Below are positions 16,206 through 37,359 of a DNA stretch of 64,000 bases, piece after piece. How positions within the stretch are numbered: the stretch's first letter is position 1; the number at the start of each line of letters is the position of its first letter. The stretch lies in IMG/VR virus record IMGVR_UViG_3300028591_000071; one strand, 5' to 3'. The notes beneath the pieces are model-generated. The model had not been told where the DNA came from, did no database searches, and was given only the letters and a program-made list of their open reading frames with translations. The DNA is from a virus (Duplodnaviria; Caudoviricetes). The position numbers and the translations under genes are program-made.

Positions 16206-17174
16206 ATGGCAAAAAGAGGAAGAAAACCGAAAGAGGAAAGGAAAGGTTATTTTTACGAAGAAGAAGAAAATGCAATAGTAAGATATGTAAACGAAACGGA
16301 CGAATCGGAAAAGAATAAGATATTCAATACAATTTTGTATCCCGCATTGACGAAGATGATTGAATCAATTATAAGGAGATATAAATTGTTTGTTCCAGAC
16401 GAGGAGTTTGAACAGAATTTTAATGATACGATTTCATATCTGTTGACGAAGATAAAACATTTCAGGCCAGTCATAACTGCTTATTTCCCGTATGAAGGTA
16501 ACACAGACGGGATTAATTTTGTTGAAATGAGCAAGGAAGAATTCTCGAAGAAAAGGAGAGATGCCACGAAAGACGACCCGAAATATATAAAAGTAGTAAG
16601 AGGTGATTGGAGAGAAGGACTATACCCAGTAGAAATACAGGTAATCGAAGGAATATTGGAAAAGGAACCCAATTTTTGCGGTCCCCCATTCCGTCTTTAC
16701 AAACTTGAAACAAAACATTATAAGGCATATTCATACTGCGGAACCGTATGCAAAAATTACCTAATGTATAAATGTACGCAGTATAACAAGAAAAGAATGA
16801 GAAATACTCCTTATGATGAAGTGTTTGAAGAAATAAGTAACAGCGAGAGATATACGACTGAGGAAGAAAGTTACTCAACTGTGGCGGAAAGGCTCGTCAA
16901 GGATATATCAAACGAAATAGAGAGGATGATTGAACACCGCGAAGAAAATGAATTATCGGAAGATGAGGTAATCGTAGGAAATGCGTTGGTAAATCTGTTA
17001 CGGAATTGGGAAGACGTACTTCCGTCAGGCGGGAGCAATAAGTTACAGAAAAGTTCGGTCCTTTATTTTTTAAGGGAAGAAACAATGATGACGACAAAAG
17101 AGGTCAGGGATAACATGCGAAAATTCAAAGCGGCCTTTGGGGTATTAAAACAGATGGAATTAGACGATAGATAA
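16206..17174 (+). CDS. Putative late-transcription sigma factor (gp55-like) with an internal insertion
   Basis: LTKMIESIIRRY...ISYLLTKIKHF...KAYSYCGTVCKNYL resembles sigma region 2 of T4-like late sigma factors. Confidence 0.6.
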   Translation: MAKRGRKPKEERKGYFYEEEENAIVRYVNETDESEKNKIFNTILYPALTKMIESIIRRYKLFVPDEEFEQNFNDTISYLLTKIKHFRPVITAYFPYEGNTDGINFVEMSKEEFSKKRRDATKDDPKYIKVVRGDWREGLYPVEIQVIEGILEKEPNFCGPPFRLYKLETKHYKAYSYCGTVCKNYLMYKCTQYNKKRMRNTPYDEVFEEISNSERYTTEEESYSTVAERLVKDISNEIERMIEHREENELSEDEVIVGNALVNLLRNWEDVLPSGGSNKLQKSSVLYFLREETMMTTKEVRDNMRKFKAAFGVLKQMELDDR

Positions 17175-17208
17175 TTGACTAATCTCTATTTATTTGAAAA
17201 GAAAAGAC

Positions 17209-17598
17209 ATGGAAACAAAAAGATATAAGGTCAAACTGAATTCCGTAGAAAAAATAGAGGAATTGCTTCAGGAAATATATGACCAAGCGTGCAGGCAAAT
17301 AAACGCAATCGAAAACGAAATAAATAAATTGACAAACTCAACGAATCTTGGGTCCGATGAAATAACAATGGAAGACAAGGCCAAATATTCAAAGGCTATC
17401 CATGATTTTGTGGGGGACAAGACAAAAGCAATCTCACAGAAATTTGAAGTTGCCAAATTCATGGGTGAACTTATCAAGAAAAGCGGCGATGCTGCTGCAG
17501 TTGTCAATGATAAAAATTTTGCAAAGAGAACATCGTTGAACTTGGATGAGATAAGGGATGCGATGAATGACGATACAGAAACATATAATTTGAAATGA
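17209..17598 (+). CDS. Hypothetical late protein
   Basis: ATG 17209 after late motif at 17186. Confidence 0.75.
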   Translation: METKRYKVKLNSVEKIEELLQEIYDQACRQINAIENEINKLTNSTNLGSDEITMEDKAKYSKAIHDFVGDKTKAISQKFEVAKFMGELIKKSGDAAAVVNDKNFAKRTSLNLDEIRDAMNDDTETYNLK

Positions 17599-30859: not shown

Positions 30860-30937
30860 ATGAATAGTCTAATTTATAGATAAATAGTTGCGTGTGCATC
30901 ATTTGTTGATTAGAAAATGATTTTGTATATTTGCCGT

Positions 30938-31393
30938 ATGGAACGAAGAAAATTTTTAAAGAGACTATTCGGCACGGCTGTTGCTGCAACCGCAGTTGCT
31001 GCAGTTCCGTCATTGGCGAAAAAATCAAGCGGAACATTCAAAATCGAAGATATTGCAGAGCAATGCACGGGGAACAAAGACTTGTGGTACTTGAAAAAAG
31101 GATGTTGGCTTGACAATGAATTGAAGAGAATCCTTGGTAACAGGGTTGTTGACAGGAAATATTTTTCTTATTATAACCCTAAAAGAGACATGCTGATTCC
31201 CGTTAAGGATGAATACACTAAAGAAGATTTTCAAGCGTTGTTGCTATTTGCCGAGGACGAGTACGATTTCAATTACTACTGCGCAGGAACAGCAAATGGA
31301 GGCGTTGAAACTGGGTTGTGCCGCTTTATCACCAACAGGACGGGCAACGCATATATTGTTGATTTTTTCAGTGCAAGGAATCCGAAAGAATAA
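30938..31393 (+). CDS. Protein with twin-arginine (Tat) signal peptide
   Basis: MERRKFLKRLFGTAVAATAVAAVPSLA; ATG 4 nt after TATATTTG. Confidence 0.7.
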   Translation: MERRKFLKRLFGTAVAATAVAAVPSLAKKSSGTFKIEDIAEQCTGNKDLWYLKKGCWLDNELKRILGNRVVDRKYFSYYNPKRDMLIPVKDEYTKEDFQALLLFAEDEYDFNYYCAGTANGGVETGLCRFITNRTGNAYIVDFFSARNPKE

Positions 31394-31394
31394 T

Positions 31395-31411
31395 TTGGCA
31401 CGATATTTGTA
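31395..31411 (+). promoter_or_regulatory. Sigma54-type -24/-12 promoter
   Basis: TTGGCACG-ATAT-TTGTA. Confidence 0.7.
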
Positions 31412-31422
31412 ATAATAAAGGC

Positions 31423-31791
31423 ATGCTTACAAGAAAAGAACTTATTGAAATTGGCGTAAATCCCGACAACATGACTTATCCCGACGGGGAAGAGAATGTC
31501 ATTGTCCAATGTTTTGGCTATGAAGATGGATTGCAGGAGAACTATGCAACGGGGGAGAAGGGCCCTATAAAAGAGGTTTACCCCGATATCTATCACCCAC
31601 GGAGGAATAGCGTTTATATGTGTACAGACGGGGATGTTCCATTTGAAACAGAAGAGGCGAAGAAAGATTGGGTGGCACACCTTCGTGATTCGGCGGAAAG
31701 ACTCAAAGTGATGGCATATTACCTTTCAAAGCAGGCGGATGAAATAGAAGAACTCGGCTATCCGAAGACTGATTGTTATTATCCGGAATAG
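31423..31791 (+). CDS. Hypothetical protein
   Basis: 122 aa; follows a sigma54 motif. Confidence 0.8.
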   Translation: MLTRKELIEIGVNPDNMTYPDGEENVIVQCFGYEDGLQENYATGEKGPIKEVYPDIYHPRRNSVYMCTDGDVPFETEEAKKDWVAHLRDSAERLKVMAYYLSKQADEIEELGYPKTDCYYPE

Positions 31792-31792
31792 T

Positions 31793-31809
31793 TTGGCACG
31801 ATATTTGCA
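31793..31809 (+). promoter_or_regulatory. Sigma54-type -24/-12 promoter
   Basis: TTGGCACG-ATAT-TTGCA, exact consensus. Confidence 0.8.
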
Positions 31810-31821
31810 ATATAAAAAAGC

Positions 31822-32199
31822 ATGATGATTTTAACAGCACTTTTTGGAATTAAAGAAGCCATCTTATTCCTGATTGGAATATGTGTTTTTTCGTACTTCA
31901 TTGTCATGGCGATTAACAACGTATATGACAAAGAAGCAAAAAAGGCGATGGCCGCTCCGATTGAGACCGCAAAAGAGATGGGACTCAACCTTTTTCATAG
32001 GAAAGGGAAAGATGACGAAATTTCTGCCATCGGAAAAAACTATGCCTTTGTCATGCAATACAATTCGGCAAAGGGCAAGTACTATGCCTTCATCTACGAT
32101 ATGGAAAGCGGAAATTATAAGATGTCAATAGTATCAAGCGACTATAATGCGGTACTGAAGTCCGCTAAGGAACTTGTTGAAAACCTTGAAAAATTTTGA
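31822..32199 (+). CDS. Membrane-anchored hypothetical protein
   Basis: N-terminal hydrophobic helix. Confidence 0.75.
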   Translation: MMILTALFGIKEAILFLIGICVFSYFIVMAINNVYDKEAKKAMAAPIETAKEMGLNLFHRKGKDDEISAIGKNYAFVMQYNSAKGKYYAFIYDMESGNYKMSIVSSDYNAVLKSAKELVENLEKF

Positions 32200-32200
32200 T

Positions 32201-32449
32201 ATGAAGAAGATTATTTTACTTATTGTCGCGATGTTGGCGTTTTCCGCTTGCGATACAAGCATGATGTATGAGCCTGCAACTAACGAACGCGGGGTTACAG
32301 AACAATTGATTTCGTCCGATGTTGCATCAAGTATTACAAAGGTGACGGTAGAGGGGCACGAATACTTTGTGTTTAGGAATAAAGTTTACTGTGGAAGTTC
32401 GATTGCCGTCGTTCATTCAGAGTCGTGTCCTTGTCATAATAAAGAATAA
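32201..32449 (+). CDS. Small lipoprotein
   Basis: MKKIILLIVAMLAFSA-C lipobox. Confidence 0.8.
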   Translation: MKKIILLIVAMLAFSACDTSMMYEPATNERGVTEQLISSDVASSITKVTVEGHEYFVFRNKVYCGSSIAVVHSESCPCHNKE

Positions 32450-32450
32450 T

Positions 32451-32732
32451 ATGAAGAAGATTTTTGCACTTTTAGCAGCGATTATGCTGTTTGCCTCATG
32501 TTCGAAGAAAGACTATGAGGCGACGATAACCTATCGGATTTATTATCCGGGAAATACAGTTACGAGGTCATACACCATGGAGGCCACCGAGCACCCTGGA
32601 TACATCTTAGCATCAAACAGAGGTTCAAATTACCTCGTCATCGTGGCAGGAGGTTCTTTCTCCCATCAAGAAAAACTCGAAGACACATCCGCTCCGATTG
32701 AAGTTGTGTCTTTCACCAAGAAAAAGAAATAG
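32451..32732 (+). CDS. Small lipoprotein
   Basis: MKKIFALLAAIMLFAS-C lipobox. Confidence 0.8.
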   Translation: MKKIFALLAAIMLFASCSKKDYEATITYRIYYPGNTVTRSYTMEATEHPGYILASNRGSNYLVIVAGGSFSHQEKLEDTSAPIEVVSFTKKKK

Positions 32733-32733
32733 T

Positions 32734-32750
32734 TTGGCACGATATTTGCA
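32734..32750 (+). promoter_or_regulatory. Sigma54-type -24/-12 promoter
   Basis: TTGGCACG-ATAT-TTGCA, exact consensus. Confidence 0.8.
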
Positions 32751-32772
32751 GTAGTTTAAGAAAATAAAAAAC

Positions 32773-33015
32773 ATGGAAAAGAACTACATTATCAACGAAA
32801 CCCTTATTAGGGAAATGGCTAACGAGGGAAAAAGGATTACCGACGACAACGGTTATGTGTATAGCATCGACAAGGACGAAGATAATGGCTATTTGTATTT
32901 AGGTCGTTTTCTCCCTGGCGAAGGGGGGAACTGTCTCCCGTTTGGTAAACGCCTCAACGGAAAAACGATTGAGAAAATGATTGTTTATCTCGAAGACAAT
33001 TGGAATAAGGAGTAG
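32773..33015 (+). CDS. Hypothetical protein
   Basis: 80 aa. Confidence 0.7.
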   Translation: MEKNYIINETLIREMANEGKRITDDNGYVYSIDKDEDNGYLYLGRFLPGEGGNCLPFGKRLNGKTIEKMIVYLEDNWNKE

Positions 33016-33068
33016 GGGAGGTTTAAAAATTAAACTTTCCCAAGTATTTTGTATATTTGAGGCAGTCG

Positions 33069-33158
33069 AAAACACCACACAGGTTTGAATCCCGTATTGG
33101 CGGTCCCGGCCACTAAAGGGCAACGCCGATTGCAAGGTGATGCAGTGGTGTTTTTTTT
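33069..33158 (+). ncRNA. Permuted tRNA-like small RNA, copy 1
   Basis: 10-bp closing stem, T-arm-like hairpin (TTTGAAT loop), 7-bp acceptor-like stem, D-arm-like hairpin, T8 tail; TATATTTG promoter at 33052. Confidence 0.7.
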
Positions 33159-33190
33159 GTTTTTATAAGAAGTTTTTATATATTTGTAAC

Positions 33191-33541
33191 ATGAAAGAAG
33201 AAAGTAGACGAAGAATCGCGAGGATGTTCCTCGAAGAAAATTTTGGTAAAAACGGCAGTCTTGCAGTCAATGCCTATGGTTTGTATATTTCAATACCCAA
33301 GCCGTTTGAACTGTACAGGTCTTGGGACAGCATGAAAAAAGATGCCCATGGAAACGAAGCAAGGGCTTTCGAAGTGATGTATGCCCCATATGTCTCTTCT
33401 GCCGAACATAGAATGATAGCAGTATCCGACAACAAAGATGAACTCAATGAAATAGTCAACCAATGTTTTGATAAAGAAAGAATTAAACTTGGTCTTGTTG
33501 AGTTTGAAGAGTATAATGGGTATAAAGTGGCGTATGATTGA
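33191..33541 (+). CDS. Hypothetical protein
   Basis: ATG 4 nt after TATATTTG. Confidence 0.75.
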   Translation: MKEESRRRIARMFLEENFGKNGSLAVNAYGLYISIPKPFELYRSWDSMKKDAHGNEARAFEVMYAPYVSSAEHRMIAVSDNKDELNEIVNQCFDKERIKLGLVEFEEYNGYKVAYD

Positions 33542-34047
33542 TGAAGGACGAAAGGAATTTCATACACTTTTCAGACGGCAGCAGAATGTTTCATGCCTTC
33601 GGCAAAAAAGATGCGTGGTGCGTTTATTACGAGGCCAAAAGTTCAAAGCCGAAAGCAATGTTGGATAGGGAATATTTCAGTGTTCTAAAGTGGATGGCAG
33701 ACACATACGGAAAAGACAAAGTGTATTCCGACTTCGTTTCAATCTATGACACAACTAGTGATTGTTTCGACGAGCGCGTCATAGAACTGATAAAAGAAAA
33801 ATCAAACTCATACAAGGGCGGCGAAGTTCGGGCAGAGAAGTTATTTTGCATCCTATATATGGCAATGGTTTCCGAATACCATTATGTGTCTAAAAGAGGT
33901 GAACCAAGCAAGTTAAACAAGAAGGTGAAGAGACTTGCTGTACATCAGATACTTAATGACGGATATTCAGTGGATGATGCAGCAAATTTTAGTTACAGAA
34001 AAAACCCGGAAAAACTGAACGAGTTATGTAATCAATACGGATTTTAA
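33541..34047 (+). CDS. Hypothetical protein
   Basis: 168 aa, coupled to the upstream gene. Confidence 0.8.
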   Translation: MKDERNFIHFSDGSRMFHAFGKKDAWCVYYEAKSSKPKAMLDREYFSVLKWMADTYGKDKVYSDFVSIYDTTSDCFDERVIELIKEKSNSYKGGEVRAEKLFCILYMAMVSEYHYVSKRGEPSKLNKKVKRLAVHQILNDGYSVDDAANFSYRKNPEKLNELCNQYGF

Positions 34048-34050
34048 AGT

Positions 34051-34067
34051 TTGGCACGATTTTTGTA
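34051..34067 (+). promoter_or_regulatory. Sigma54-type promoter for RNA copy 2
   Basis: TTGGCACG-ATTT-TTGTA; predicted +1 near 34078. Confidence 0.7.
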
Positions 34068-34080
34068 AGATAAATAGACG

Positions 34081-34169
34081 AAGTTATTACACGGGTTTGA
34101 ATCCCGTATTGGCGGTCCCGGTCACTAAAGGGCAACGCCGATTGCAAGGAGATGCAGTGGTGATTTTTT
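34081..34169 (+). ncRNA. Permuted tRNA-like small RNA, copy 2
   Basis: 72-nt core differs from copy 1 at 3 positions; the closing stem is diverged but still pairs through G-U. Confidence 0.7.
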
Positions 34170-34246
34170 GTTTTTTGAAAAGAAGTTTGTATATTTGAAT
34201 CGTGGGAACTATTTATAGAACACACAACAGAACATAATATTCTTAC

Positions 34247-34350
34247 AGAGGTGAAGGGCTGCAAGAATAATACATATTAGAAATCCAGCGGATTGCAGTC
34301 ATAGTGCCCACCCTTCACTTTATGGTACGCCGATTGCGAGCCGCTTTTTT
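34247..34350 (+). promoter_or_regulatory. Structured leader with alternative terminator/antiterminator folds
   Basis: GAGGTGAAGGG/CCCTTCACTTT plus CTGCAA/TTGCAG versus AGCGGATTGCAGTC/GATTGCGAGCCGCT-T tract. Confidence 0.6.
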
Positions 34351-34375
34351 ATGAGAATTATTAACATTTGAAAAT

Positions 34376-35725
34376 ATGGATACACCAAAAAAACCCAACA
34401 TTAAAAATTTGCCCGAAGGATATGATATTAGATGGAATCCTGCCACATCAAAGTGGCAAATGTATTGCATTAAAGGGTTCTCCGAAAGGTATTTGTCTAA
34501 AAACAAAAATAAATTCATACCAAAGCCATCCATAGCAAAAACAAAAGTTGGAGGAAAGAAGGGAAAAAACGAAAGTATGCTGGACGCCAAGCGAATTGGC
34601 TACGATGAGTTTTATACAAGAAAAGAAGATATTGCTGAAGAAGTTACACAATACAAAGATTATTTTAGGGGTAAAACGGTCTATTGTCCATGCGACAAAG
34701 CATATAATCTTGGAATGAGCAATTTTTTTGTTTTCTTTGCAACATATTTCAAAGAACTAGGCATTGAAAAGTTGATATGTACGCAATACAACCCAGAAGG
34801 GCACGGAACTGTGAAATCAATAACAGCATGCACGGTGTCTGAATTAGAAAGTAGAGGTATAAAATGGGAGTGGCACGGAGAAAATGGCGGAGATAAGCTA
34901 CCAGATGAGAGTGAAATACCAATTGATTTTCTTATGGGGGATGGCTCATTTGATTCCGAAGAATGCAAAAAAATAATGCTCGGCGAAAGTGGCGATGGGA
35001 AAAATGTTATAGTTTGTACGAATCCACCGTTCAGCAAGTGGAAAGAGTTCATAAAACAGGTTATGGACTGCGGATGCGGTTTTCTTGTTCTTTCTAATCA
35101 GAATGCAATTACATATAAAGAAACATTCCAATATATAAGAGATAATAAAATGTGGATTGGATATAAGCCTCTTGGGAGTGAAATGTTTTTCCATATTACG
35201 GATGAATATAAAGAAGAAATCCGTAAAAAGAAGAAAGAGGGCAGTGGATGGAAAGTCATTAACGGAGAAATAATGGCGAGAGTTGCCGTTGCTTGTTGGT
35301 TTACAAACCTTTCAAACGAAAAAAGGGCCAATGAACTGTATTTGTCAGAAACATATAAGGATAACGAAGAAAAGTATCCGAATGTCGTTAATATGGCAAA
35401 CTGTATAGACATTGGGCATTGGAAAAAGAACGGAAAATGGGAAGGCAAATTGGATATGATTCCTAAAGATTATCCATACACTATGGCGGTCCCTATTACA
35501 TTTCTCGGTAAATATAACCCTGAACAATTTGAAATTGTTGGTTGTCCAGACGCTGATGTTCTGCCAGAAGGATGGAATGGTATGCCACAGTGGTTTATTG
35601 ATGCTTATTATAAGCAGGGAAACACTGGTTCTTATAAGGAAGGGAATCGCTTGGATGCTTTTGTTAAAGACGGGAAGGCGGTTGTCGCCTTCAAAAGACT
35701 TTTGATTAAACACAAGAAAATTTAA
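34376..35725 (+). CDS. EcoRI-family adenine-specific DNA methyltransferase
   Basis: DEFYT, VYCPCD, GDGSFDSEEC, TNPPFS, VPITFL.KYNPEQFEIVG. Confidence 0.9.
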   Translation: MDTPKKPNIKNLPEGYDIRWNPATSKWQMYCIKGFSERYLSKNKNKFIPKPSIAKTKVGGKKGKNESMLDAKRIGYDEFYTRKEDIAEEVTQYKDYFRGKTVYCPCDKAYNLGMSNFFVFFATYFKELGIEKLICTQYNPEGHGTVKSITACTVSELESRGIKWEWHGENGGDKLPDESEIPIDFLMGDGSFDSEECKKIMLGESGDGKNVIVCTNPPFSKWKEFIKQVMDCGCGFLVLSNQNAITYKETFQYIRDNKMWIGYKPLGSEMFFHITDEYKEEIRKKKKEGSGWKVINGEIMARVAVACWFTNLSNEKRANELYLSETYKDNEEKYPNVVNMANCIDIGHWKKNGKWEGKLDMIPKDYPYTMAVPITFLGKYNPEQFEIVGCPDADVLPEGWNGMPQWFIDAYYKQGNTGSYKEGNRLDAFVKDGKAVVAFKRLLIKHKKI

Positions 35726-35744: not shown

Positions 35745-37172
35745 ATGGGAAAAGAAAATTTTAGAATTCAATTAGATGCTGAATGCGTTGCAAATCCGTT
35801 GGATATTCACGAAGAGACATTTACTCTCAGACAATTAAAAGAAGGGTATTTTGACAACTCCAAAAAATTATCTGGCGAGGTTGTTGCTATGGCTGGCAAG
35901 CTTAATGTACGGCCTAAGTTTCAGAGAGCGTATGTGGTAGAGGCAGATAAGGTGTGGAAGGCGAAACTCATAAACTCCGTGCTAAATCACAGGCCAATTG
36001 GCCTGATTTATTTTGGGGTAGTGAAAGATAAAAAATCCCCATATCTATACATTAACATTGATGGGCAGCAGAGGATTATCACTATTTGTGATTTTATTCA
36101 AGATGTTGGAGCAACTGCAATGCCATTCACAATTAAGGGTGTTGATAAAACTCTTTTTTTCAAGGAACTTCCACAATATTATCAAGACAGAATTCTTGAT
36201 TACGAACTGAAAGTTCAAATTTGTGAAGGCAGCGAGGAAGAAATTTACGAGTGGTTTGAAACAATAAATCAAAAAGCAACAATTCTTGTTCCACAAGAAC
36301 TTAGAAATGTTGCCTACGGTGGTCAATGGCTTGAAGATGCTAAATTTTATTTTTCCGCGACACGCTCAAGTGACAAAAAGGAAATAAATGACAGAAAAAG
36401 CCGTTATTATGGGCCTCTTTATAAAAGTAATGTTGACCCAGTTCGTCAGGAATGCCTTGAAATGGCATTAGATTGGGCTTCTTTTAAGGAAGCCTACGAT
36501 GACGCATTATTGGAAAATCCAGAAACGCCAAAAGAAAAGATTGCAGAAGAAATTGAGAAGAAAGCAAGTGAAGATGCGAGAATCAGGCTTTACATGTTAA
36601 ACCACAAAGACGATGAAGATGCATCTGAACTGATTTCCTCGTACAAGGAAAGAATTGATTGGATTCACGATGTGTTTTTCCACAATGGAATATATTCTCC
36701 TCAGACAATAAAGAGTCAGCCTTGGGGTAGGATATATGCTATGTATTCAGATATGGACCTTTCGGAAGAGGATAAATCACGAATTTCAAATAGATGCAAA
36801 GTTATTTGTGGTGGGGGTTCTGAACTATACAATAAGTCAACTGGTGTTTACGAATGGGTTCTTCGTGGCGAAAAGGATGAAGAAATTAAGACATATTTGC
36901 AGTACCGTGGATTTGAAGAGAAGGATAGGCGCAACATGTGGGAACAGCAGGGGCATAGAGACCCAATTGACGGAAAAGAATATCCGTTTGAAGAAATGGA
37001 TGGACACCATATCATTTCTTGGAAAGACGGAGGACCAACAGATACGGGAAATCTAGTAATGCTTTCCAAAAATAATCATCAAAAATTGCACAGAGGATTT
37101 TATGGAATACCCCCATCCGAACTAAGGGTTAAAAGGGATGAATACATTAAAGAATATTACTCTAAAAAATAG
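35745..37172 (+). CDS. DUF262 (ParB-like/GmrS) plus HNH endonuclease
   Basis: PKFQR, IDGQQR, FETINQ, C-terminal DGHHIISWKDGGPT..NL..L...H. Confidence 0.88.
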   Translation: MGKENFRIQLDAECVANPLDIHEETFTLRQLKEGYFDNSKKLSGEVVAMAGKLNVRPKFQRAYVVEADKVWKAKLINSVLNHRPIGLIYFGVVKDKKSPYLYINIDGQQRIITICDFIQDVGATAMPFTIKGVDKTLFFKELPQYYQDRILDYELKVQICEGSEEEIYEWFETINQKATILVPQELRNVAYGGQWLEDAKFYFSATRSSDKKEINDRKSRYYGPLYKSNVDPVRQECLEMALDWASFKEAYDDALLENPETPKEKIAEEIEKKASEDARIRLYMLNHKDDEDASELISSYKERIDWIHDVFFHNGIYSPQTIKSQPWGRIYAMYSDMDLSEEDKSRISNRCKVICGGGSELYNKSTGVYEWVLRGEKDEEIKTYLQYRGFEEKDRRNMWEQQGHRDPIDGKEYPFEEMDGHHIISWKDGGPTDTGNLVMLSKNNHQKLHRGFYGIPPSELRVKRDEYIKEYYSKK

Positions 37173-37203
37173 ATGCAATCGCGTCGAAAGAACCAAAGAA
37201 AGG

Positions 37204-37236
37204 AGAAAACGCATCCTAACAAGGGTGCGTTTTCTC
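37204..37236. terminator. Intrinsic terminator
   Basis: AGAAAACGCATCCT-AACA-AGGGTGCGTTTTCT. Confidence 0.7.
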
Positions 37237-37359
37237 GTTCTTGACAACTTTCTAAGAATCGCTATATTTATTATAGTACAGCATCCACCTAACCCGCATG
37301 GATGCGAAGGTAGGAAGACGGGTTACCTTAATAAAACAAACTAAAATAATTCCAAAGTT

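What the first reader, a model, noticed from the sequence alone, without database searches (positions are those of the whole stretch)
34247..34350. Switchable attenuator leader of the methylase locus, complementary to the tRNA-like RNA
Seen: the leader can form fold A (GAGGTGAAGGG/CCCTTCACTTT and CTGCAA/TTGCAG) or a mutually exclusive terminator-like stem, AGCGGATTGCAGTC(34287-34300)/GATTGCGAGCCGCT(34332-34345), followed by a T tract. The 11-mer ACGCCGATTGC occurs in the leader (34327-34337) and in both small RNAs. RNA segments GG(U/C)CACUA (apical loop) and GAUUGCAA are complementary, in the correct antiparallel order, to the adjacent leader segments UAGUGCCC (one mismatch) and UUGCAGUC. Inference: the small RNA may act in trans as a bipartite antisense switch, conceptually like phage P1 c4, controlling methylase/nuclease read-through. 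The matches are short and could be chance.
Basis: partly seen in the sequence, partly recalled or inferred. Interest (0 to 1): 0.75.

Follow-up and report, generated by a model that had tools for sequence, protein, structure and literature searches.

The report
Phage attenuator leader with pairing loops
The stretch is a real, conserved, structured RNA leader ending in a transcription terminator in front of a phage's methylase/nuclease genes, but the neighbouring tRNA-like small RNA does not appear to control it.

Summary
The sequence features are all present at the stated coordinates. The window is part of a large T4-like phage from sheep gut, with Bacteroidota-type promoters. Positions 34202-34351 form an about 150-nt 5' leader between a host-type promoter and the EcoRI-like methylase / GmrSD-HNH pair.

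I found seven homologous leaders in six contigs. They sit upstream of three gene types: methylases, GmrSD nucleases and an IS1595-like transposase. All share one architecture:
- a short hairpin P1;
- a long hairpin P2 directly followed by a conserved U tract;
- two apical loops, L1 and L2, that are invariant or nearly so and complementary over 8 bp.

The P1 and P2 stems covary: 11 pairs change on both sides, matched by 0 of 500 shuffles. Before the terminator's 3' strand exists, the most stable fold pairs L1 with L2 in 7/7 members. The full-length optimum is the terminator in 6/7, with one tie. This supports a two-state attenuator.

The trans-antisense idea is not supported. The small RNA core is invariant while its proposed leader targets vary and are compensated in cis. 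Complementarity falls to background in relatives. Leaders occur in 13-, 33- and 38-kb stretches that lack the RNA. The shared 11-mer is above chance in this window but specific to one lineage.

What controls read-through is unknown, and no transcript-end data were obtained.

The parts
34167..34197 (+). Bacteroidota-type promoter of the leader: TTTG at 34167-34170, a 19-nt spacer, then a TAnnTTTG box at 34190-34197
   Evidence: Read. The consensus is from my own knowledge of Bacteroides promoters. An equivalent box lies upstream of all seven homologous leaders.
34202..34238 (+). Unstructured, poorly conserved 5' part of the leader (the transcript start is inferred, not mapped)
   Evidence: 42% mean pairwise identity in the flank; unpaired in the optimum fold.
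34239..34268 (+). Hairpin P1; its apical loop L1 (34249-34258) is identical in all seven homologues
   Evidence: fold; 84% of cells paired, 4 pairs with changes on both sides. L1 100% identical against 63% for the P1 stems. P1 alone is -6.0 kcal/mol.
34269..34286 (+). Linker between P1 and P2, variable in length and sequence
   Evidence: 56% identity; 11-nt insertion in the second L014 copy.
34287..34345 (+). Long terminator hairpin P2: outer 14-bp stem (34287-34300 / 34332-34345), 3x3 internal loop, inner 5-bp stem (34304-34308 / 34324-34328), and 15-nt apical loop L2 (34309-34323) that carries the complement of L1
   Evidence: 94% paired, 7 pairs with changes on both sides across the outer and inner stems. 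P2 alone is -24.0 kcal/mol. L2 is 93% identical across members.
34346..34351 (+). U tract directly after P2 (intrinsic-terminator tail)
   Evidence: Five or more T's follow the stem in all seven homologues.
34352..34375 (+). Short non-conserved spacer to the methylase start codon; too short for a full separate promoter
   Evidence: The spacer is 12-50 nt in the homologues, and only about 12 nt in the second L014 copy.
34327..34337 (+). The 11-mer shared with both small-RNA copies. It spans 2 nt of the inner stem, the 3-nt internal loop and 6 nt of the 3' arm
   Evidence: Conserved 10 of 11 only in L008 and not in the other five leaders.
34376..35725 (+). EcoRI-family adenine methyltransferase gene, first gene downstream of the leader
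   Evidence: Pfam PF13651, E 3e-80.
35745..37172 (+). GmrSD_N (DUF262) + HNH nuclease gene, second gene of the unit; a strong terminator follows at about 37200-37240
34076..34172 (+). tRNA-like small RNA, copy 2 (copy 1 lies at 33064-33160). A neighbour of the leader, not shown to be functionally linked to it

Best explanation
Positions 34202-34351 are a cis-acting transcription attenuator. It belongs to a small, previously undescribed family of leaders in large phages of gut Bacteroidota.

Proposed course of events:
1. Transcription starts at a host-type promoter (box at 34190-34197).
2. The RNA first forms the weak hairpin P1, which displays the invariant loop L1.
3. When the second invariant loop sequence L2 emerges, L1 pairs with it over 8 bp. 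This pairing is extended by a few pairs that hold part of the terminator's 5' arm.
4. Once the 3' arm is made, the more stable state is P1 plus the long hairpin P2 followed by U's, an intrinsic terminator. In that state L1 and L2 sit in two apical loops and could still touch as a kissing pair.
5. The downstream genes (methylase and GmrSD/HNH here; a GmrSD nuclease or a transposase elsewhere) have no room for a promoter of their own. They are therefore made only by read-through.

Shown: conservation, covariation of P1 and P2, the conserved U tract, the two-state energetics, and the position in front of genes.

Inferred: that termination really occurs at 34346-34351, and that the balance is set kinetically. 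Because both loops are invariant while the stems drift, I also infer an unidentified factor that reads L1 and/or L2. The adjacent tRNA-like RNA is not that factor.
For: Family and position:
- Seven homologues in six contigs: window, L001, L008, L009, L046 and two in L014.
- Each has its own promoter box and a co-oriented ORF 12-50 nt after the U tract.
- The downstream genes differ: methylases 95% and 47% identical to the window's, GmrSD_N+GmrSD_C nucleases, and an IS1595-type transposase.

Structure:
- In the MAFFT alignment of six members, 93% of cells are paired and 6 pairs change on both sides (matched by 2 of 500 shuffles).
- In the model-based alignment of seven members, 11 pairs change on both sides and covariation is 0.371 against 0.243 (0 of 500 shuffles). 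Slid controls give 32-43% paired.
- An eighth variant, in a DNA contig of run X5, keeps all 14 outer pairs, with G-C changed to A-U at 34288/34344.
- Identity by region: L1 100%, L2 93%, stems 63-75%, linker 56%, internal loops 37%.
- The U tract is kept in 7/7 members.

Energetics:
- L1xL2 duplex -15.0, P1 -6.0, P2 -24.0 kcal/mol.
- The nascent RNA cut after L2 has L1:L2 paired (7-8 bp) in its optimum in 7/7 members. That fold is 2.6-13.4 kcal/mol better than any fold with L1 free.
- The full-length optimum is P1+P2 with both loops free in 6/7 members, with a tie in one.

Other methylase homologues (L043, L044/L045) carry unrelated long leaders that also end in terminator-like hairpins.
Against: - No transcript ends are available. 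The one metatranscriptome holding this phage gave no contig over the leader, so termination is unproven.
- L1 and L2 never vary, so their pairing has no covariation support.
- The energy gap between the two states ranges from 0 to 14 kcal/mol among members, which is not what a finely tuned switch would show.
- Single-sequence fold energy is not exceptional (z -0.8 and -1.2).
- Only seven or eight sequences, from a few related phages; the best covariation figures come from an alignment fitted to the model.
- No effector has been identified.
- Close homologues of the same GmrSD (82%, 75%, 65% identity) and of the methylase (60-64%) lack the leader. The leader is therefore dispensable for those genes.
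Confidence: 0.6

Rival explanations
1. One reading: the tRNA-like small RNA (34076-34172 and 33064-33160) base-pairs in trans with leader 34293-34309. This bipartite antisense contact holds the terminator's 5' arm and so controls read-through, in the manner of P1 c4.
For: - In this window the small-RNA 3' part and leader 34293-34309 can form a -18.1 kcal/mol duplex. Only 0.14% of window 17-mers are as good.
- The 11-mer is shared, which is above chance.
- The RNA lies directly upstream of the leader in the window and in L008. A truncated remnant lies there in L009.
Against: - The small-RNA core is invariant, while the target segments vary and are compensated in cis.
- Duplex energy with the cognate RNA is at background level in L008 (-8.5, 25% of random sites) and L009 (-12.5, 4%).
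- Net cofold gain is -0.2 kcal/mol, worse than 99% of shuffles, because the RNA segments are paired within the RNA itself.
- Full-length duplex scores are not better than shuffles or decoys.
- The covariance model finds no small RNA in the 13, 33, 38 and 4.5 kb around four other leaders.
- The small RNA also stands in front of unrelated genes (L005, L010, window copy 1).
- There is no Rfam match to C4 or any other family.
Confidence: 0.05
2. The terminated transcript of about 150 nt is itself the product: a stand-alone small RNA whose loops act on something else. One example would be an RNA partner or antidote of the downstream nuclease, laid out like a type III toxin-antitoxin locus. Downstream genes would then be made by leak-through or from a weak promoter in the spacer.
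For: - It has its own promoter and a canonical terminator.
- The loops are far more conserved than the stems, as in RNAs that recognise a partner.
- The order of RNA, then terminator, then a potentially toxic gene resembles ToxIN-type loci (my knowledge).
- There are near-matches to the promoter box in the spacers of the window, L001 and L009 (read).
Against: - The spacer is only about 12 nt in the second L014 copy and is not conserved elsewhere.
- All seven copies sit immediately upstream of a co-oriented ORF.
- The downstream proteins are of three unrelated kinds, so a specific RNA-protein pairing is unlikely.
- There are no tandem repeats of the RNA.
- The two loops are complementary to each other rather than to any other site in the window.
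Confidence: 0.17
3. There is no switch. The leader is a fixed dampener and insulator: a partially efficient terminator, perhaps combined with a stabilising 5' structure. It keeps expression of risky accessory genes low and travels with promoter cassettes during modular shuffling.
For: - The gap between the two states varies from 0 to 14 kcal/mol.
- No effector was found.
- The region is a mosaic of terminator-promoter cassettes (families D2, D3, D12), like the PeSL cassettes of T4-type phages (PMC2839356, PMC4122927).
- The leader is more conserved than the genes behind it: leaders are about 85% identical while the L008 methylase is 47% identical.
Against: - A plain terminator does not need two invariant, mutually complementary loops 50-60 nt apart.
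- It also does not need a conserved upstream hairpin that covaries.
Confidence: 0.13
4. The element acts as DNA. The 9-bp inverted repeat (L1/L2) would be an operator pair, or a recombination or transposition site, of the mobile accessory cassettes.
For: - In L014 two copies flank the GmrSD-methylase cassette as direct repeats, and the second precedes a transposase.
- The same 9-mer inverted repeats occur in repeat elements of Prevotella/Segatella genomes.
- One recombination junction in L009 lies at the small-RNA copy of the shared 11-mer.
Against: - Compensatory changes in the P1 and P2 stems and the conserved U tract point to a single-stranded transcript, not to duplex DNA.
- The orientation is always promoter, then element, then gene.
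Confidence: 0.05

Closest known systems
Classical terminator/antiterminator attenuators (trp-, pyr- and bgl-type leaders)
   Same: A promoter-proximal leader. An intrinsic terminator lies just before the first gene. An upstream segment can pair with part of the terminator region. There is an early hairpin (P1) that competes with that pairing.
   Different: No sensor has been identified: no convincing leader peptide, tRNA, protein site or ligand pocket. The antiterminator is nucleated by pairing with the terminator's apical loop rather than with its 5' arm alone. The two states could therefore also coexist as a pseudoknot or kissing pair. There is no sequence relation to any Rfam family.
Lambda pR'-tR' unit (short 6S transcript; Q-dependent read-through)
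   Same: A constitutive promoter makes a short RNA of about 150-200 nt that stops at a strong terminator. The genes behind it depend on read-through (my knowledge).
   Different: No Q-like or N-like protein and no qut/nut-like site has been identified. Here the leader RNA itself has conserved, covarying structure.
Phage P1 c4 antisense RNA / ant control (Rfam C4)
   Different: Complementarity is neither conserved nor covarying. The RNA and the leader occur independently of each other. There is no match to the C4 model.
PeSL promoter-terminator cassettes of T4-type phages (PMC2839356, PMC4122927)
   Same: Repeated regulatory modules between accessory genes in a hyperplastic region of a T4-like genome. 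They are more conserved than the genes they flank and are associated with modular shuffling.
   Different: PeSLs are short units of a stem-loop plus an early promoter. This element is a 150-nt transcribed leader with two hairpins and complementary loops, located downstream of the promoter.
Type III toxin-antitoxin loci (ToxIN)
   Same: The order is promoter, structured RNA, terminator, then a potentially toxic gene.
   Different: There are no tandem RNA repeats. The downstream proteins are a DNA methylase, a DNA nuclease or a transposase, not an endoribonuclease.

Membership tests
Intrinsic (Rho-independent) terminator | G+C-rich stem immediately followed by a U tract | tested here: met
   The base of P2 is a 5-bp G+C-rich helix (34287-34291 / 34341-34345), followed by six T's. 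The U tract is present in 7/7 homologues. The simple scanner missed it because the loop limit is 8 nt.
Intrinsic (Rho-independent) terminator | Hairpin maintained by selection (compensatory changes) | tested here: met
   Seven P2 pairs change on both sides. Whole structure: 0 of 500 shuffles reach the observed values, and 2 of 500 on the MAFFT alignment.
Intrinsic (Rho-independent) terminator | RNA 3' ends at the U tract | tested here: inconclusive
   Only assembled contigs of one metatranscriptome were available, and none covers the leader.
Terminator/antiterminator attenuator | A conserved alternative pairing that excludes the terminator | tested here: inconclusive
L1:L2 (8 bp) is present in 7/7 members but invariant, so it gives no covariation. 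The nascent-RNA optimum uses L1:L2 in 7/7. L1:L2 could also coexist with P2 as a pseudoknot.
Terminator/antiterminator attenuator | Downstream gene depends on read-through (no promoter of its own) | tested here: inconclusive
   The spacers are 12-50 nt and not conserved, and the shortest leaves no room for a promoter. Weak promoter-like boxes exist in some spacers. No start-site data are available.
Terminator/antiterminator attenuator | An identified sensor (ribosome, protein, tRNA or ligand) | tested here: not met
   None was found. A 3-6 codon mini-ORF ending at the UGA in L1 is present in 6 of 7 members but absent in the window, where AUG is replaced by AUA.
P1 c4-type trans antisense control | Complementarity between the RNA and its target is kept or covaries in relatives | tested here: not met
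   -18.1 kcal/mol in the window against -8.5 (L008) and -12.5 (L009) with the cognate RNAs. The target changes are compensated in cis.
P1 c4-type trans antisense control | The RNA and its target co-occur | tested here: not met
   Leaders lie without the RNA in L001, L052/L053, L014/L015 and L046. The RNA lies without the leader in L005 and L010. Caveat: all of these are partial genomes.
P1 c4-type trans antisense control | Match to the Rfam C4 model | tested here: not met
   No Rfam match at the gathering threshold over the window, or at E up to 10 over 32900-34450.
Loop-loop (kissing) RNA element | Two hairpins whose apical loops are complementary | tested here: met
   L1 (10-nt loop) and L2 (15-nt loop) share 8 Watson-Crick pairs, worth -15.0 kcal/mol as a free duplex, in 7/7 members.
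Loop-loop (kissing) RNA element | Evidence that the loops pair in the folded RNA | not testable with these tools
   There is no variation in either loop, and no pseudoknot or 3D prediction or probing data.
Type III toxin-antitoxin | Tandem repeats of the antitoxic RNA and an endoribonuclease toxin | tested here: not met
   There is a single copy per locus. The downstream genes are a methylase, a GmrSD nuclease or a transposase.

The most novel reading that the evidence does not exclude
The invariant loops L1 and L2 are the receptor of a trans factor: a small ligand, a phage or host protein, or another RNA. The element would then be a new class of phage riboregulator, a kissing-loop or pseudoknot attenuator. 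It would gate potentially self-harming accessory genes (methylase/GmrSD nucleases, a transposase) to a particular time or cellular signal during infection of gut Bacteroidota. A second leader in the same window (37281-37329) has two hairpins with complementary loops. This suggests the design is used more than once.
Probability: 0.2. Interest if true: 0.7.

Novelty: new member of a known kind. Interest (0 to 1): 0.45.

Why it matters
Almost nothing is known about gene regulation in the large, uncultivated phages of gut and rumen Bacteroidota. This is a concrete candidate cis-regulatory RNA with comparative support. It has a defined architecture and clear mutational tests. It sits in front of phage-borne methylase/GmrSD cassettes, which probably serve in phage-phage or phage-host conflict. 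The analysis also removes an attractive but unsupported link between this leader and the neighbouring tRNA-like RNA. The function of that RNA therefore has to be sought elsewhere.

Tried and rejected
- BLAST of 33000-34400 against the phage and plasmid collections: no match.
- Rfam at gathering and permissive thresholds: nothing credible. ARAGORN: no tRNA.
- No whole genome is held for this window.
- Methylase-based locus search in IMG/VR: none. The small-RNA pattern in IMG/VR: none. Leader patterns in IMG/VR returned only one contig.
- The first genome contigs pattern found nothing. The second returned 27 loci, none a homologue. They are heptamer-type repeats in various bacteria and a Prevotella/Segatella repeat element that contains the same 9-mers. 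Four of those loci scanned have no Rfam family.
- Four of the eight metagenome pattern hits for the small RNA were chance matches (L003, L004, L006, L007).
- Laying public runs: the RNA run holds scattered identical pieces of the locus at depth 2-3 but nothing over the leader or the small RNAs. It shows neither transcription nor termination.
- Full-length duplexfold gives unrealistic interactions and no signal.
- Leader peptide idea: there is a mini-ORF in 6 of 7 members but not in the window, and its codons overlap the conserved P1/L1. It cannot be separated from RNA constraints.
- The short ORF starting at 34322 is not conserved (inspection).
- Methylase homologues L002, L043, L044/L045 and GmrSD homologues L047-L050 lack this leader.
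- Literature search for a described leader of phage GmrSD/methylase genes found nothing relevant.
- I did not run structure or complex predictions, because no protein question was open.

Full report
**Context.** Relatives lie on contigs of 124 kb and 375 kb. The DNA is held by sheep-gut metagenome runs. Genes in the accessory region 30900-34400 are preceded either by TTTG-N19-TAnnTTTG boxes, the Bacteroidota housekeeping promoter type (my knowledge), or by a sigma-54-like box. The finding lies between such a promoter (box at 34190-34197) and an EcoRI-family methylase (34376-35725). A GmrSD_N/HNH nuclease follows at 35745-37172.

**Observation.**
- RNAfold places the optimum of the full leader as a hairpin P1 (34239-34268, apical loop L1 34249-34258) plus a long interrupted hairpin P2 (34287-34345, apical loop L2 34309-34323), followed by six U's.
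- Single-sequence energies are unremarkable (z -0.8 and -1.2).

**Relatives.** The closest methylase (95% identity) lies on an ENA contig (L001) with a homologous leader.
- A metagenome pattern scan for the small RNA returned four true copies (L005, L008, L009, L010). Two of those contigs also carry the leader.
- A pattern scan of IMG/VR found the leader in one 38-kb viral contig (L011/L014).
- Homologues of that contig's GmrSD protein led to L046.
- A covariance model of six leaders found a seventh, much more diverged copy at L014 16498-16639 (69 bits, E about 1e-15).
- A contig of run X5 adds an eighth variant.

The genes behind the leaders differ:
- methylases 95% and 47% identical to the window's;
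- GmrSD_N+GmrSD_C nucleases (the N-terminus only in L009);
- an ORF followed by an IS1595-type DDE domain.

Other homologues of the same methylase and GmrSD families have ordinary short upstream regions or unrelated long leaders.

**Structure.** On the MAFFT alignment of six members (A3), the P1+P2 structure is 93% paired. It has 6 pairs changed on both sides (2/500 shuffles) and a covariation score reached by 1/500.
- On the model-based alignment of seven (A4) there are 11 such pairs, and no shuffle in 500 reaches the observed values. Sliding the partner columns drops pairing to 32-43%. That alignment is fitted to the model and leans towards it.
- Regional identity is striking: L1 100%, L2 93%, stems 63-75%, linker 56%, internal loops 37%.
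- The U tract is present in all members.
- L1 and L2 are complementary over 8 bp, -15.0 kcal/mol as a free duplex, against -6.0 for P1 and -24.0 for P2.

**Two states.** I cut each RNA just after L2, which is the situation before the terminator's 3' strand has been transcribed.
- At that stage the optimum pairs L1 with L2 (7-8 bp) in all seven members. This fold is 2.6-13.4 kcal/mol better than the best fold with L1 free.
- In each member the helix is extended by a few pairs that hold part of the P2 5' arm, though not always the same pairs.
- At full length the optimum is P1+P2 with both loops unpaired in six of seven members and a tie in the seventh. The gaps range from 0 to 14 kcal/mol.

The general two-state picture is therefore conserved, but its details are not. 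Because L2 sits in the terminator's loop, L1:L2 could also persist beside P2 as a kissing pair or pseudoknot. These tools cannot tell which.

**The small RNA as a trans regulator.** The small RNA folds as a four-way junction. Its core is identical in six copies from five contigs.
- Its proposed targets in the leader differ between leaders, and the differences are matched by changes in the leader's own partner strand. Examples are 34295/34337 G-C to A-U in L008, 34305/34327 U-A to C-G in L009, and 34298/34334 G-U to U-A in L014/L046. The small RNA stays constant.
- The restricted duplex is -18.1 kcal/mol in the window (0.14% of window 17-mers are as good). It is -8.5 in L008 and -12.5 in L009 with their own small RNAs (25% and 4% of random sites), and -11.4 and -9.3 for L001 and L014.
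- The window value arises because the small RNA's 3' part resembles the leader's own 3' arm.
- Allowing each RNA its own fold, the net gain from association is -0.2 kcal/mol, worse than almost all shuffles.
- The small-RNA model finds no copy in L001 (13 kb), L052/L053 (33 kb of a 375-kb contig with the same leader), L014/L015 (38 kb with two leaders) or L046.
- Conversely, the small RNA precedes unrelated genes in L005, L010 and window copy 1.

All these contigs are partial genomes, so absence is not proven. Even so, the covariation argument does not depend on it.

**The 11-mer.** In this window the 11-mer is beyond chance.
- It is kept 10 of 11 only in L008, the other leader that has a full small RNA directly upstream. 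It is lost in the other five.
- Three of its bases lie in the unpaired, most variable internal loop.
- In L009 the small RNA next to the leader is truncated exactly at this sequence, beside an inserted T5orf172-type gene.
- I read it as a footprint of recombination or gene conversion between neighbouring modules that share the short GAUUGC core, not as a pairing signal. That is inference.

**Mechanism and comparison.** The best-supported reading is a cis-acting attenuator. Its terminator is conserved, and its alternative state is nucleated by the L1:L2 pairing. The strict invariance of both loops, while the stems drift and covary, suggests that something reads them, but I could not identify it.
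- A mini-ORF ending at the UGA inside L1 exists in six of seven members but not in the window.
- The closest known designs are classical terminator/antiterminator leaders and the lambda pR'-tR' unit.
- The modular spread of the element resembles the PeSL cassettes of T4-type phages (PMC2839356, PMC4122927).
- It is not a member of any Rfam family and fails the defining tests for c4-type antisense control.

**Limits.** The analysis rests on seven or eight sequences from a narrow group of phages. There are no transcript-end data, and the default state (read-through or termination) cannot be decided in silico.

Noticed in passing
window 31396, 31794, 32735, 34052; also L001 5737, L008 2671, L014 12910, L043 109/2611/2822: The sigma-54-like box (TGGCACG, 4 nt, TTGYA) occurs four times in the window against 0.34 expected. 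It is conserved at equivalent intergenic places in related phage contigs. It always lies just after a stop codon and about 11 nt before an ATG or the small-RNA start, which implies leaderless transcripts.
   Followed up: partly
window 33064-33160 and 34076-34172; L005, L008, L009, L010: The tRNA-like four-way-junction small RNA has an invariant 74-nt core in six copies from five contigs. Only two loop positions and the closing stem vary. It stands before unrelated genes and has no Rfam or ARAGORN match. Its function is open.
   Followed up: partly
L009 (minus strand) about 305-389, beside the leader at 128-259: A truncated small-RNA remnant (last arm and closing strand only) follows an inserted T5orf172/GIY-YIG-like gene. 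The break lies at the sequence shared with the leader's 11-mer, which hints at a recombination or homing hot spot.
   Followed up: no
window 37262-37330: The leader of the 458-aa orphan gene has two small hairpins whose loops are complementary over 5-7 nt (about -8 kcal/mol as a duplex). This is the same design principle as L1/L2 but an unrelated sequence, with no U tract after it. A very stable terminator (37200-37240) precedes it.
   Followed up: partly
L017, L020, L025, L034, L037, L041, L042 (Segatella copri and uncultured Prevotella genomes): A multi-copy intergenic repeat element in the likely host group contains the same 9-mer as L1 and runs of its complement, arranged as hairpins and inverted ends. 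In four of these loci scanned (L017, L020, L025, L042) no Rfam family matches. The resemblance to the phage loops may be coincidence or mimicry of a host site.
   Followed up: no
L043 2600-2940; L044 2720-3000 (= L045 1006-1288): Methylase homologues (54% and 51% identity) carry different long leaders that also end in terminator-like hairpins just before the start codon. The L043 leader shares a stretch of about 17 nt with the window's P1-P2 linker (34271-34287).
   Followed up: no
L014 16498-17574: The second, diverged leader copy precedes an IS1595-type transposase that is split by an in-frame TAG (ORFs 16643-16945 and 17059-17574). This is either a pseudogene or a hint of stop-codon recoding in that phage. 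The two leader copies flank the GmrSD-Dam-like methylase cassette as direct repeats.
   Followed up: no
L014 10214-12907: An IMP-dehydrogenase/GMP-reductase-like gene appears to be interrupted by an intein (Hint and intein-splicing domains, with an endonuclease-sized insert).
   Followed up: no
L052 15790-17054 (375-kb contig): In this near-identical relative the methylase behind the leader is called as two ORFs (171 + 249 aa) and lacks its N-terminal part. It may be a frameshifted copy.
   Followed up: no
window 34237-34254 and homologues: A mini-ORF of 3-6 codons ends at the UGA inside loop L1. It is present in six of seven leaders (AUG in five, GUG in one) and is lost in the window (AUA).
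   Followed up: partly
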